A stretch of 64,000 nucleotides of DNA from contig JADBKU010000028.1 of NCBI GenBank assembly GCA_014896235.1, positions 83,706-147,705 on the forward strand, in the 5' to 3' direction. Each line of letters opens with the position of its first letter. Within the stretch, counting starts at the first letter, position 1. Shown piece by piece: positions 16,084-19,149 of the stretch. The notes under the pieces were generated by a model. It saw only the letters and a program-made list of their open reading frames with translations, ran no database searches and was not told the origin of the DNA. The position numbers were made by a program, and so were the translations under genes. This stretch comes from a bacterium (GTDB lineage: Bacteria; Desulfobacterota; Binatia; Binatales; Binataceae).

Positions 16084-17385
16084 ATGAATCCGACCACGAT
16101 TTCCGAAATCCGTGCGCGCGAAATTATCGATTCGCGCGGTAATCCGACGATCGAAGCCGACGTACGGCTCGCGGGCGGAGCCTTCGGCCGCGCCGCGGTG
16201 CCGTCGGGCGCTTCGACCGGAGTGCATGAAGCGCTTGAGCTGCGCGACGGCGACCGCGCCCGCTTTGGCGGCAAAGGCGTGCTCAAGGCGGTCGCCAACG
16301 TCAACGGTCCAATTGCCAAACGGCTGGCCGGATTCGACGCGCTCGGCCAAGCCGCGATCGACGAAGCCCTGATCGAACTCGACGGCACGGAAAACAAATC
16401 CCGGCTCGGCGCGAACGCGATGCTCGGCGTGTCGCTGGCCGCCGCCCATGCCGCCGCCGCCGCGCGCGGCCTGCCGCTGTATCGTTACCTCAATGAACGC
16501 GCGGCGCTGATGCCCACGCCAATGATGAACGTGCTCAACGGCGGCAAACACGCGGATTCGAGCGTCGATATGCAGGAGTTCATGATCGTGCCGCTCGGCG
16601 CGCCAACGATGGCGGAAGCGGTGCGCATCGGCGCCGAAGTGTTTCACGCGCTGGCGGCCACGCTCAAACGCCACGGTCATTCGACCAACGTCGGCGACGA
16701 GGGCGGCTTCGCGCCGAATCTGCGCGACAACGAGGAGCCGATCGTCGTTATACTCGAAGCGATTACGGCGGCCGGTTATCGCCCCGGCGAACAGGTCGCA
16801 ATCGCGCTCGATCCGGCCTCCAGCGAATTTTACAAGGACGGCAAATACGTCTTCGCCCGCTCCGACAGGAAAGCGCGCGGCGCCGACGAAATGGTCCGGC
16901 TCTACGACCGCCTGATCTCGCAATACCCGATCGTTTCGATCGAGGACGGCCTTGCCGAAGACGATTGGGCCGGATGGAAAACGCTGACGGCGGAATTGGG
17001 CGGCCGGGTGCAACTGGTCGGCGACGATTTGTTCGTAACCAATCCGAAGCGCCTCACGCGCGGCGTCGAAGAAGGCGTCTGCAATTCGATTCTCATCAAG
17101 CTGAATCAAATCGGCACGCTCACCGAAACTCTGCGCACTATCGAGATTGCCAACGCCGCCGGTTACACGTCCGTCATTTCGCATCGCTCCGGCGAGACCG
17201 AAGACACCACGATTGCCGATCTCGCGGTGGCGACCGGCGCGGGCCAGATCAAAACCGGCTCGATGAGCCGCGGCGAGCGCACAGCCAAATACAACCGCCT
17301 CATTCGGATCGCTGAAGAACTGGGCTCCGGTGCCGTCTATGCTGGCGCGCGAGCGTTCCGGAAGCGGACGGGAGCCGCGCGATGA
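16084..17385 (+). CDS. eno: Enolase (phosphopyruvate hydratase)
   Basis: Canonical enolase N-terminus [22 protein letters not shown], metal and substrate motifs ([32 protein letters not shown]). Confidence 0.9.
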
Positions 17386-18365
17386 ACCGTCCGCCGGTCG
17401 CCGCGCTGATCATTTTCGACGGCTGGGGCTTGCGCGAGGCGCGCGAGGCCAACGCGATTCTCGCCGCGCGCACGCCCGTGATGACCCGGCTGTGGGCCAC
17501 CCAGGCGCACTGTGCGATCGAAGCGTCGGGCGAGGCCGTTGGGCTGGCGCCGGGCGTGATGGGCAATTCGGAGGTCGGCCATCTGACGATCGGCGCCGGC
17601 CGCGTGATCTATCAGGACGTGATGCGCATCACGAAAGCGATCGAAACCGGCGCGTTTTTCAGGAACGAAGCTCTCGTCAGCGCCTGCCGCGCCGCCGCGG
17701 CGGGCGGCCGCACCCTGCACCTGTGGGGACTGCTCTCCGACGGCAGCGTCCACAGCCATATTGACCATCTCCTCGCGCTGCTCGATCTCGCCGCGCATGA
17801 AAAGGTCGAAAATATCGCGGTGCACGCCGCGCTCGACGGGCGCGACAAGCCGCCGCGGTCGGCTCTGCCGTTCGTCGATCGGCTCGAAGCGAAACTCAAA
17901 GAAATCGGGCGCGGCCGGATTGCCACGGTGTCGGGCCGCTACTTCGCGATGGATCGCGACAAGCGCTGGGACCGGGTCGAACGCGCCTGGCGAGCGATCG
18001 TGATGGGCGAGGGGCGCCGCGCGCCGACCGCACGGGCCGCCGTCGAAGCCGCTTATGCGGAGAACAAGGGCGACGAATTCGTTGAGCCGACCGTGATCGG
18101 CGAAGCGCATCCGATGGCGGACGGCGATCAGGTCGTCTGCTTTAATTTCCGCGCCGACCGCGCGCGCGAACTTACCGCCGCCCTTACGCAGGACGACTTC
18201 AACGGCTTCGCCCGGCCGCGTTTCCCAAAAATCGGCTACGTCTGCATGTCAGAATACGATCGCAATTTCGCGCTGCCGCTCGCGTTCGGTCCCGAAGACG
18301 TGCGCAACACGCTGGCCGAAGTGCTGGCGCGCGCCGGGATCCGGAATCTCAGAATCGCCCGCAAT
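17382..18365 (+). pseudogene. gpmI: 2,3-bisphosphoglycerate-independent phosphoglycerate mutase, 5' part only (C-terminal ~190 aa absent)
   Basis: The first ~325 aa match iPGM, including the catalytic Ser motif MGNSEVGHLTIGAGRV and the transferase domain through LAEVLARAGIRNLRIA. After about 18365 the frame continues as Arg-rich nonsense to 18806. No iPGM C-terminal domain (metal-binding His/Asp) is found in any frame. ATGA coupling with eno. Confidence 0.55.
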
Positions 18366-18381
18366 CGCGCATCTGCGGCGG

Positions 18382-19149
18382 ATGCTTTTCCCCGACGGCG
18401 CACGCCTCGCGATGCTCGCAATGCATCCCACCGCCGAGCGGATGCCGGAATCGTCGCTTTCGCGAATGATCAGCTGGTGTATCGAGGAATTCGGCGCGGG
18501 CGCGATTGGATGCGTCGCGACGCGGCAAGGGGTCGACGCCGCGGGCGCGGCGGCTTTTCTGGCCGGAACCGCCGCGCGCCGCGAGCCGGTATGCGTCCTC
18601 GGCACGACCGCGTCATTCGCGGCGCTGTTCGAGCGTCTGCGCGCGGACGGATCGCCGATTCGGCTGGCGGCGGGATCGCGAATCATGGACACGGGCGGCG
18701 CCAAGGGACAGGCCGCGCCGCTCAGCGCCGCCGCCGTGGTCGAAGCGGCGGGCGAACTGCTCGGCGTGGCGCCCGCGCTCGCGATCAACGAATACGGGAT
18801 GACTGAAATGTGCTCGCAGCTTTACGATGCGACGCCGTTCAACCGCCCCGGCGCGGCGGGAACGCCCGGCGCGCGAATGAAACTCGCACCGCCATGGCTC
18901 AAGCCGGTCGCGCTCGATCCGGTAACGATGCGCCCGCTGACGGCGGACGCCGTGGGAATGCTCGCGTTTTTCGATCTGGCCAATGTCGGTTCGATTTCGG
19001 CGCTGATGACCGAAGATTTCGGCGTCGTGCGGGGCGATGCGGTCGCGATTCTGGGCCGTGCGGCGGCGGGCGGGGCGCGCGGCTGCGCGCTCGCGATCGA
19101 TGAATTCGCGGAACGGGAACTCGCGCGCGTGACGGCGCATCGGCAATGA
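18382..19149 (+). CDS. LuxE/PaaK-like adenylate-forming (acyl-protein synthetase-like) protein, possibly N-terminally truncated
   Basis: 255 aa. P-loop-like IMDTGGAKGQ and ANL A5-like INEYGMTEMCSQLY. Shorter than typical LuxE (~370 aa). The stop overlaps the start of the LuxC-like gene (ATGA). Confidence 0.4.
   Translation: MLFPDGARLAMLAMHPTAERMPESSLSRMISWCIEEFGAGAIGCVATRQGVDAAGAAAFLAGTAARREPVCVLGTTASFAALFERLRADGSPIRLAAGSRIMDTGGAKGQAAPLSAAAVVEAAGELLGVAPALAINEYGMTEMCSQLYDATPFNRPGAAGTPGARMKLAPPWLKPVALDPVTMRPLTADAVGMLAFFDLANVGSISALMTEDFGVVRGDAVAILGRAAAGGARGCALAIDEFAERELARVTAHRQ

What the first reader, a model, noticed from the sequence alone, without database searches (positions are those of the whole stretch)
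17382..19149. gpmI loses its C-terminal domain exactly where a LuxE-like ORF begins, a rearrangement, pseudogenisation or chimeric-assembly junction
The first ~325 residues of the frame-0 ORF from 17382 are clearly iPGM, including the catalytic Ser motif GNSEVGH. From about 18365 the same frame becomes Arg-rich nonsense, and I find no iPGM C-terminal metal-binding domain in any frame. At 18382, in the +1 frame, a 255-aa ORF with adenylate-forming motifs (MDTGGAKGQ, NEYGMTEMC) begins, which is about 115 aa shorter than typical LuxE/PaaK-like proteins. Both neighbours therefore look truncated at the same point. The likeliest explanations are a deletion fusing the 3' end of gpmI to an internal point of the next gene, an indel or frameshift, or a contig mis-join. 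If real, the organism needs another phosphoglycerate mutase elsewhere.
Basis: partly seen in the sequence, partly recalled or inferred. Interest (0 to 1): 0.6.

Follow-up and report, generated by a model that had tools for sequence, protein, structure and literature searches.

The report
Two broken genes joined: probable mis-assembly
At base 18359/18360 the first two thirds of a glycolysis gene (gpmI) are joined directly to the last two thirds of an unrelated gene from a distant part of the same kind of genome, and since both genes are intact in near-identical sequences from other samples this is most likely an assembly error, not biology.

Summary
Left of 18359 the window is collinear with six related Binataceae contigs. 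All of them stop matching at 18359 and continue as an intact 511-aa gpmI followed by BKACE, VWA-like and M16 peptidase genes. Right of 18360 it is collinear with five other contigs. These carry an intact 371-aa luxE/PaaK-like gene preceded by DSBA, PEP-mutase and a hypothetical gene.

The window keeps gpmI codons 1-326 and luxE-like codons about 110-371, one frame apart. The missing halves are nowhere in the 64 kb.

One JGI soil metagenome holds both genes intact on separate contigs, 99.9% and 99.5% identical to the two flanks. The NCBI assembly that very probably holds this contig also lists the first 54 codons of the luxE-like gene at the end of another contig. This argues against a simple deletion.

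The two intact alleles share only 1 nt at the join, so a repeat did not cause it. A frameshift or indel is excluded.

- **Best reading (about 0.75):** a chimeric contig joining two loci of one genome.
- **Rival (about 0.2):** a very recent real rearrangement that killed both genes.

Only read mapping can decide. Interest is low.

The parts
16084..17385 (+). enolase (eno), complete. It is the upstream partner of gpmI in the conserved eno-gpmI pair, and its stop overlaps the gpmI start by 4 nt.
   Evidence: Pfam Enolase_N plus Enolase_C, full length. The same arrangement is seen in L001-L005 and L095.
17382..18359 (+). gpmI remnant, codons 1-326 of a 511-codon gene, ending ...NLRIA. It keeps the N-terminal metal/Ser part (FDGWG, GNSEVGH) and the whole transferase domain. 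It lacks ETEKYAHV, NPDMVGHTG, TADHGN and PHTAHT.
   Evidence: TIGR01307 positions 4-326/504. It is 326/326 identical to intact P0250. blastn to L001, L002, L003, L012 and L095 all ends at 18359.
18359..18360 (.). Breakpoint: ...CAGAATCGCC|CGCAATCGCG... Only the C at 18359 is shared by the two intact parental alleles.
   Evidence: Three-way alignment of the window with L012 (intact gpmI) and L013 (intact luxE-like). The longest k-mer the two alleles share within 300 nt of the breakpoints is 10 nt and out of register.
18360..18806 (+). Arg-rich tail of the annotated 474-aa 'gpmI' ORF. This is the luxE-like gene read in the wrong frame and is not a protein domain.
   Evidence: Translation. No family match beyond residue 327.
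18361..19149 (+). luxE/PaaK-like remnant, codons about 110-371 of a 371-codon gene, in frame +1 relative to gpmI. The first possible start is ATG 18382 (255 aa). It lacks the TSGTTKG phosphate-binding loop (aa 85-91 of the intact protein).
   Evidence: 98% identity and 100% query coverage to 371-aa P0121. 260/262 identical to P0259. Pfam LuxE 21 bits, below the 24.9 cut-off, against 30.8 bits for intact P0259.
19146..20435 (+). luxC-like acyl-CoA reductase, complete. It is the downstream partner of the luxE-like gene.
   Evidence: Pfam LuxC 142 bits. The same order luxE-luxC-aminotransferase-HisKA is seen in L006-L009. Logan contig L010 is 100% identical.
20432..21637 (+). Class-III aminotransferase, complete. 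The start is probably ATG 20432 (401 aa, as in relatives).
   Evidence: Pfam Aminotran_3 335 bits. Gene lengths in L006 and L008. ATG at 20432.

Best explanation
The window carries a blunt junction at 18359|18360 between two loci that lie far apart in the same kind of Binataceae genome. One is the eno-gpmI locus, cut after gpmI codon 326. The other is the luxE-luxC-aminotransferase locus, entered at luxE codon about 110 and one frame off. I think it most likely that this junction does not exist in the organism. It would be a chimeric contig, an intragenomic mis-join made during metagenome assembly, and the real genome would have both genes intact as every relative does. Because the two loci share no repeat at the join, the likely route is a chimeric read or fragment, or an overlap, scaffold or gap-closing step, that bridged two dead ends left by coverage gaps. 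Shown: the exact breakpoint, intact alleles elsewhere, and a luxE N-terminal fragment stranded at another contig's end. Inferred: that the join is artificial, and the route by which it arose.
For: (a) All 11 related contigs diverge from the window exactly at the junction and carry intact genes in different neighbourhoods. (b) JGI metagenome 3300005524 holds an intact gpmI (L012: 2 mismatches in 1627 nt; protein 326/326 identical) and an intact luxE-like gene (L013: 4 mismatches in 813 nt) on separate contigs. The event, if real, is therefore younger than about 0.1-0.5% divergence, and neither remnant shows further decay. (c) One search lists a 54-aa 'acyl transferase, partial [bacterium]' (MBE3603922.1) at the end of a 243,945-bp contig. 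The fused ORF is MBE3604505.1 [bacterium] on a 154,578-bp contig. The accessions are 583 apart, which indicates one assembly. This fragment is 54/54 identical to the N-termini of exactly those luxE alleles that are closest to the window's C-terminal part. The luxE locus is thus split between two contigs of that assembly, with about 55 codons missing. (d) Both flanks belong to the same organism type. Tetranucleotide correlation is 0.99 and GC is 62.1 vs 63.7%. Both flanks also have relatives at like identity in three datasets: JGI 3300005524, Logan SRR24392716 (both 100%) and ENA ERZ27236897. (e) The junction 28-mer is absent from JGI metagenome contigs, while the intact-allele 28-mer is found once. 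(f) Every other gene tested in the window looks full length. (g) Losing gpmI from a conserved eno-gpmI pair would remove the enzyme's Mn-binding half. No other PGM is in the window. (h) According to PMC9661791, most metagenome misassemblies are chimeras of two locations and about 65% of breakpoints fall inside coding sequences.
Against: The two intact alleles share only 1 nt at the join, and at most 10-15 nt anywhere. A standard de Bruijn-graph mis-join through a repeat is therefore excluded, and repeats are said to be the main cause of misassemblies (PMC9661791). Blunt or 1-nt-microhomology joins are also what genuine illegitimate recombination produces. I could not look at reads, coverage or the other contigs of the assembly. 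That the two NCBI proteins belong to one assembly rests on accession proximity and allele identity, not on a record look-up. The JGI negative is weak, because only one JGI contig carries this strain's allele at all. The independent Logan assembly of SRR24392716 does not cross the site in either configuration: its contigs end at 18008 and start at 18585.
Confidence: 0.75

Rival explanations
1. A real and very recent rearrangement in this strain. Illegitimate (microhomology-poor) recombination joined gpmI codon 326 to luxE codon 110. It could be one end of an inversion, if the two genes lie in opposite orientation on the chromosome, or a translocation. Both genes would be pseudogenes. luxC and the aminotransferase would then sit behind the eno-gpmI promoter, and another phosphoglycerate mutase would have to carry the flux.
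For: The join is blunt, with 1 nt of microhomology and no repeat, which assemblers rarely produce on their own. Both flanks come from the same organism type. Survival of the luxE N-terminus elsewhere in the assembly is compatible with an inversion or translocation.
Against: Both genes are intact in a 99.5-99.9% identical population and in all other relatives. The remnants show no decay. The change would inactivate a core glycolytic enzyme in a conserved operon. The junction has not been seen in any other dataset. The contig with the luxE N-terminus stops about 165 nt short of where the reciprocal junction should be, so nothing positive supports a second junction.
Confidence: 0.2
2. A simple genomic deletion that removed everything between the middle of gpmI and the middle of a downstream luxE-like gene.
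For: Both remnants are on the same strand and in the order expected for a deletion.
Against: The genes are not neighbours in any relative. More than 9 kb downstream of gpmI and more than 10 kb upstream of luxE are known and do not overlap. There is no luxE within 10 kb of gpmI in 9 Binataceae loci. In a 785-kb contig of a 91% relative, 598 kb downstream of gpmI holds no listed luxE member (inference). The luxE N-terminus, which a deletion would have removed, is still present in what is very probably the same assembly.
Confidence: 0.03
3. A frameshift, indel or sequencing error inside one continuous gpmI gene, or an in-frame functional gpmI-LuxE fusion protein.
For: None beyond the long uninterrupted 474-aa ORF, which NCBI annotated as gpmI. 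Its TIGR01307 score of 399 bits still exceeds the 330.65 cut-off.
Against: No iPGM C-terminal sequence exists in any frame of the window. The DNA right of 18360 is 99.5% identical to a luxE-like gene. The luxE frame is +1 relative to gpmI, so no fusion protein is made. The tail of the ORF is out-of-frame read-through with no family match.
Confidence: 0.01

Closest known systems
Chimeric (intragenomic translocation-type) misassembly in metagenome-assembled contigs, as catalogued by MetaQUAST/metaMIC (PMC9661791)
   Same: Two segments from different locations of a genome are joined in one contig. The breakpoint lies inside coding sequence and truncates genes. The complementary piece of one gene is stranded at the end of another contig of the same assembly.
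   Different: There is no repeat or shared k-mer at the breakpoint, whereas repeats are the usual cause. No read-level signature could be checked here.
Cofactor-independent phosphoglycerate mutase GpmI (TIGR01307; structures 1EJJ, 5VPU)
   Same: Residues 8-327 match the family. They include the FDGWG and GNSEVGH (catalytic Ser) motifs and the complete iPGM_N transferase domain. The intact allele aligns end to end with the solved enzymes.
   Different: The C-terminal 185 residues are missing, including NPDMVGHTG, TADHGN and PHTAHT. From my own knowledge of the 1EJJ structure, these motifs supply most of the Mn2+ ligands of the phosphatase domain, so the remnant cannot be an active mutase.
LuxE/PaaK-family adenylate-forming acyl-protein synthetases (Pfam PF04443), paired with LuxC-like reductases
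   Same: The intact relatives (371 aa) pass the Pfam LuxE threshold (30.8 vs 24.9 bits). They are followed by a LuxC-family reductase, as in lux operons.
   Different: These are not the bioluminescence enzymes. NCBIfam LuxE scores 34-58 bits against a 550 cut-off, and LuxC 44 bits against 750. The window copy lacks the first about 109 residues, including the TSGTTKG loop, and falls below the Pfam threshold (21 bits).
Illegitimate (microhomology-mediated or end-joining) recombination junctions in bacterial genomes
   Same: A blunt join with 1 nt of microhomology between unrelated sequences, disrupting both genes.
   Different: There is no evidence that the join exists in DNA from the organism. 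It is absent from the nearest population sample.

Membership tests
GpmI / iPGM (TIGR01307 equivalog) | Score above the curated cut-off | tested here: met
   399.4 bits against a cut-off of 330.65. This explains the NCBI product name.
GpmI / iPGM (TIGR01307 equivalog) | Full-length coverage of the model (about 504 positions), including the second half of the metalloenzyme (phosphatase) domain | tested here: not met
   Only positions 4-326/504, and PF01676 4-88/252. Intact P0250 covers 4-503/504 and 4-252/252.
GpmI / iPGM (TIGR01307 equivalog) | C-terminal metal-binding motifs (DMVGH, ADHGN, distal His) | tested here: not met
   These motifs sit at aa 395-403, 436-441 and 453-458 of P0250. They are absent from all six frames of the window. 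Their role as Mn ligands is from my knowledge of 1EJJ and was not tested.
Pfam LuxE (PF04443) acyl-protein synthetase family | Score above the gathering threshold with near full-length coverage | tested here: not met
   Window ORF: 21.0-21.1 bits against 24.9, profile positions 208-388/391. Intact P0259: 30.8 bits, positions 38-388/391.
Pfam LuxE (PF04443) acyl-protein synthetase family | N-terminal phosphate-binding loop of adenylate-forming enzymes (T/S-S-G-T-T-x-G) | tested here: not met
   TSGTTKG lies at aa 85-91 of intact P0259. The window copy starts at aa about 110.
Bioluminescence LuxE / LuxC (NCBIfam NF052244 / NF052251 equivalogs) | Score above the equivalog cut-off | tested here: not met
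   LuxE: 33.7 bits (window) and 58.1 bits (intact P0259) against 550. LuxC: 44.2 bits against 750.
Chimeric contig (assembly mis-join) | The flanks map to two different, non-adjacent loci of reference or related genomes, with an abrupt switch | tested here: met
   Six left-side and five right-side relatives switch at 18359/18360.
Chimeric contig (assembly mis-join) | The complementary parts of the broken genes are present elsewhere in the same assembly | tested here: inconclusive
   The luxE N-terminus (54 aa) is found at a contig end under a neighbouring NCBI accession. The gpmI C-terminus could not be searched for.
Chimeric contig (assembly mis-join) | Read-level signature: a coverage drop, clipped reads and discordant pairs at the breakpoint | not testable with these tools
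   No reads are available. The independent Logan contigs from SRR24392716 stop at 18008 and restart at 18585 without crossing the site.
Chimeric contig (assembly mis-join) | A repeat or shared k-mer at the breakpoint (typical of de Bruijn-graph errors) | tested here: not met
   1 nt is shared at the join. The longest shared k-mer is 10 nt within 300 nt of the breakpoints and 15 nt over whole contigs.

The most novel reading that the evidence does not exclude
The junction is real. A Binataceae strain very recently underwent an inversion or translocation by repeat-independent illegitimate recombination. This simultaneously destroyed its iPGM and a conserved luxE-like gene, and placed luxC and the aminotransferase under the eno-gpmI promoter. 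The strain became dominant enough to be assembled, so it would run glycolysis and gluconeogenesis with a different, unlinked phosphoglycerate mutase.
Probability: 0.2. Interest if true: 0.25.

Novelty: not a real feature. Interest (0 to 1): 0.08.

Why it matters
The main value is as a quality flag. The public record annotates a 474-aa 'phosphoglycerate mutase' (MBE3604505.1) whose last 148 residues are out-of-frame read-through of another gene. Metabolic reconstructions of this MAG would either count a dead enzyme as present or infer a false loss of gpmI and of the luxE-like gene. The contig should be split at 18359/18360 unless reads support the join. If the junction were real, it would be an ordinary strain-level structural variant with two pseudogenes. 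That would be of modest interest only for how the strain replaces iPGM.

Tried and rejected
1. **Frameshift or indel:** rejected. There is no gpmI C-terminal sequence in any frame, and the DNA switches to another locus.
2. **Insertion of a luxE island into gpmI:** rejected for the 45 kb available. No gpmI 3' half or BKACE/VWA/M16 genes lie downstream, and luxE itself is truncated.
3. **Inter-species chimera:** rejected. Composition is identical on both sides, and both sides have 100% identical contigs in one run.
4. **Repeat-mediated mis-join:** rejected.
5. **Mobile element or tRNA-linked integration:** no tRNA, no Rfam match, and no flanking repeats.
6. **Genome-contig scan with intact gpmI (P0250):** meant to find this MAG and a possible second contig with the C-terminus.
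7. **Protein search with the out-of-frame tail (18300-18803):** meant to find other assemblies with the junction. It returned nothing, not even the identical NCBI protein, so the control failed, probably because of the composition-bias filter.
8. **Exact-protein look-ups of P0001 and P0255:** neither is on record in the contig collection.
9. **Literature search for the sample and run identifiers:** no papers found.
10. **The Logan contig ends near the junction (18008 and 18585):** I considered these as evidence of a graph branch at the junction. They are not at the junction, and they coincide with local GC peaks of 0.76, at or above the 95th percentile. A GC-related coverage gap is therefore the simpler reading. 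This is unverified.
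Full report
**What is in the sequence**

The region holds enolase (16084-17385), then a 474-aa ORF (17382-18806), and in the +1 frame a 255-aa ORF (18382-19149). These are followed by a LuxC-family reductase (19146-20435) and a class-III aminotransferase.

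The 474-aa ORF matches iPGM models only over residues 8-327: TIGR01307 positions 4-326 of 504, PF01676 positions 4-88 of 252, and the whole iPGM_N domain. The 255-aa ORF matches only the C-terminal half of the LuxE and AMP-binding profiles, and scores below the Pfam threshold.

**Where exactly the break is**

A protein search with the gpmI part returned hundreds of full-length (about 510 aa) Binataceae orthologues. It also returned the window's own product, annotated by NCBI as gpmI from '[bacterium]' on a 154,578-bp contig.

I fetched the contigs of the closest relatives:
- L001, 96.7% DNA identity over window 7380-18359.
- L002-L005, about 83.5%.
- L095, 91.1%.
- L012, 99.88% (2 mismatches in 1627 nt).

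All of them align up to window base 18359 and not one base further. All continue as an intact gpmI followed by BKACE(-), a VWA-like gene(-), two M16 peptidases, DUF1326 and so on.

A search with the translated 18361-19146 found 371-aa LuxE/PaaK-family proteins. The best is 98% identical over 100% of the query. Their contigs align with the window from 18356-18360 rightwards:
- L006 and L007, about 97%.
- L008 and L009, 86-87%.
- L013, 99.5% from 18360 (4 mismatches in 813 nt).

They carry an intact gene preceded by DSBA(-), a PEP-mutase/ICL-family gene(-) and a 148-aa hypothetical(-).

The three-way alignment reads:
- L012: ...CAGAATCGCC|GAAACCGAAAAATAC
- window: ...CAGAATCGCC|CGCAATCGCGCATCTG
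- L013: ...TCGAGCGGC|CGCAATCGCGCATCTG

The junction is 18359|18360, and only the C at 18359 is common to both parents. gpmI is cut after codon 326 (...NLRIA|ETEKYAHV...). The luxE-like gene is entered at about codon 110, one frame off. The rest of the 474-aa ORF is therefore out-of-frame read-through.

tblastn with the intact proteins finds no second piece of either gene anywhere in the 64 kb.

**What is lost**

The intact allele P0250 is 326/326 identical to the window's remnant. It covers TIGR01307 4-503/504 and aligns end to end with the solved iPGMs 5VPU and 1EJJ.

The missing 185 residues contain NPDMVGHTG, TADHGN and PHTAHT. From my knowledge of the 1EJJ structure, these provide most of the Mn2+ ligands, so the remnant cannot be active.

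The luxE-like remnant lacks the first about 109 residues, including the TSGTTKG loop at aa 85-91. No in-frame fusion is possible. The remnant still scores 399 bits against a TIGR01307 cut-off of 330.65. This explains why the public record calls it gpmI.

**Are the two sides from one organism?**

Tetranucleotide profiles of the left and right parts correlate at 0.99, as well as sub-segments within each side do. GC is 62.1 vs 63.7%.

Both sides also have relatives at matching identity in three datasets:
- Logan SRR24392716: L011 = window 13631-18008 and L010 = window 18585-21881, both 100%.
- JGI 3300005524: L012 and L013, 99.9 and 99.5%.
- ENA ERZ27236897: L003 and L009, 83-86%.

The join is therefore within one genome type, not between species.

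**Are the loci neighbours?**

They are not, in any of the 11 related contigs. The 9-10 kb known downstream of gpmI and upstream of luxE do not overlap. No luxE lies within 10 kb of gpmI in nine Binataceae loci.

In a 784,829-bp JGI contig (L095), gpmI sits at 184,913-186,451. No luxE-family protein or 22 lists a contig of that length. I infer from this that the loci are hundreds of kb apart.

**The same assembly holds the other end of luxE**

The 90% cluster of the luxE-like protein contains a 54-aa 'acyl transferase, partial [bacterium]', MBE3603922.1. It lies on a 243,945-bp contig. The fused ORF is MBE3604505.1 [bacterium].

I could not fetch the record to check. This fragment is the luxE N-terminus running off a contig end. 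It is 54/54 identical to precisely those alleles (P0259, P0262, P0258, P0264) whose C-terminal parts are closest to the window's, at 260/262 and similar values.

This argues strongly against a simple deletion. It also shows that the luxE locus is fragmented in that assembly, with about 55 codons unaccounted for.

**Real or artefact?**

In favour of an artefact:
- Intact alleles exist in a 99.5-99.9% identical population, and the remnants show no decay.
- One of the two disrupted genes is a core enzyme in a conserved eno-gpmI pair.
- The luxE N-terminus is stranded at a contig end.
- The junction 28-mer is absent from JGI contigs, while the intact-allele 28-mer is present. It was found only once, so this is weak evidence.
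- Every other gene tested in the window looks complete.
- PMC9661791 reports that most metagenome misassemblies are chimeras of two locations, with about 65% of breakpoints inside coding sequences.

Against an artefact:
- The two loci share no k-mer at the join: 1 nt in register, 10 nt at most nearby and 15 nt over whole contigs.
- The usual repeat-driven graph error is therefore excluded. A mis-join would need a chimeric fragment or a gap-closing step that bridged dead ends.
- A blunt join is also what genuine illegitimate recombination leaves.

The independent Logan assembly does not cross the site in either configuration. Its contigs end at 18008 and begin at 18585, both inside local GC peaks of 0.76, at or above the 95th percentile. 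This suggests coverage gaps here, but it is unverified.

Weighing priors and evidence, I put about 0.75 on a chimeric contig and about 0.2 on a real recent inversion or translocation. Simple deletion gets about 0.03 and frameshift or functional fusion about 0.01.

**What failed**

- The protein search with the nonsense tail returned nothing, not even the identical NCBI protein.
- The literature search for the sample identifiers found nothing.

**Verdict**

The contig mis-join is the best-supported reading. A real strain-specific rearrangement cannot be excluded without reads. In either case this is not a new kind of biological feature. Its practical value is as a flag on a public MAG annotation.

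Noticed in passing
window 18361-22981; also L006 2614-7561 and L008 10001-14953: A conserved Binataceae gene block: a LuxE/PaaK-like adenylating enzyme, a LuxC-like acyl-CoA reductase, a class-III aminotransferase and a HisKA histidine kinase. It has hundreds of homologues. Scores are far below the NCBIfam LuxE and LuxC equivalog cut-offs, so these are not bioluminescence enzymes. The order suggests an acid-to-aldehyde-to-amine route, but this is unstudied.
   Followed up: partly
window 9309-15379: An RND efflux operon (AcrB-type pump, membrane-fusion protein, outer-membrane factor) lies between the GST gene and the DUF4286 gene. It is present in the window, L001 and L095 but absent from the 83%-identical relatives L003-L005. 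This is an insertion or deletion difference between lineages.
   Followed up: partly
window 18008 and 18585 (ends of Logan contigs L011 and L010): Two contigs from the independent Logan assembly of SRR24392716 are 100% identical to the window. They stop 351 nt before and start 225 nt after the junction. Both ends lie in 100-nt windows of 76% GC, at or above the 95th percentile for the window. This may reflect GC-related coverage gaps, but I could not verify it.
   Followed up: partly
window 51783-54017 (-): A 744-aa ORF directly downstream of recA (53801-54997), overlapping recA's 3' end if the longest start is used. It has no Pfam match at E <= 0.001.
   Followed up: no
window 38060-44741 (-): Two tandem xanthine-dehydrogenase/aldehyde-oxidase-type molybdopterin large subunits (790 and 765 aa) with a ThiS-like 107-aa ORF between them. 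A [2Fe-2S] subunit and an FAD-binding subunit lie next to them.
   Followed up: no
window 2-534 (+): A HicB-like antitoxin (cut by the window start) followed by a HicA toxin ORF.
   Followed up: no
window 20300-20435: The longest aminotransferase ORF (TTG 20300, 445 aa) overlaps luxC by 136 nt. Relatives have 401-aa proteins, and an ATG at 20432 overlaps the luxC stop by 4 nt. That ATG is the likelier start.
   Followed up: partly
window 17382-18806; NCBI protein MBE3604505.1: The public annotation names the 474-aa chimeric ORF '2,3-bisphosphoglycerate-independent phosphoglycerate mutase', because the truncated match still exceeds the TIGR01307 cut-off. No protein for the luxE-like remnant turned up in the protein collection.
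   Followed up: yes
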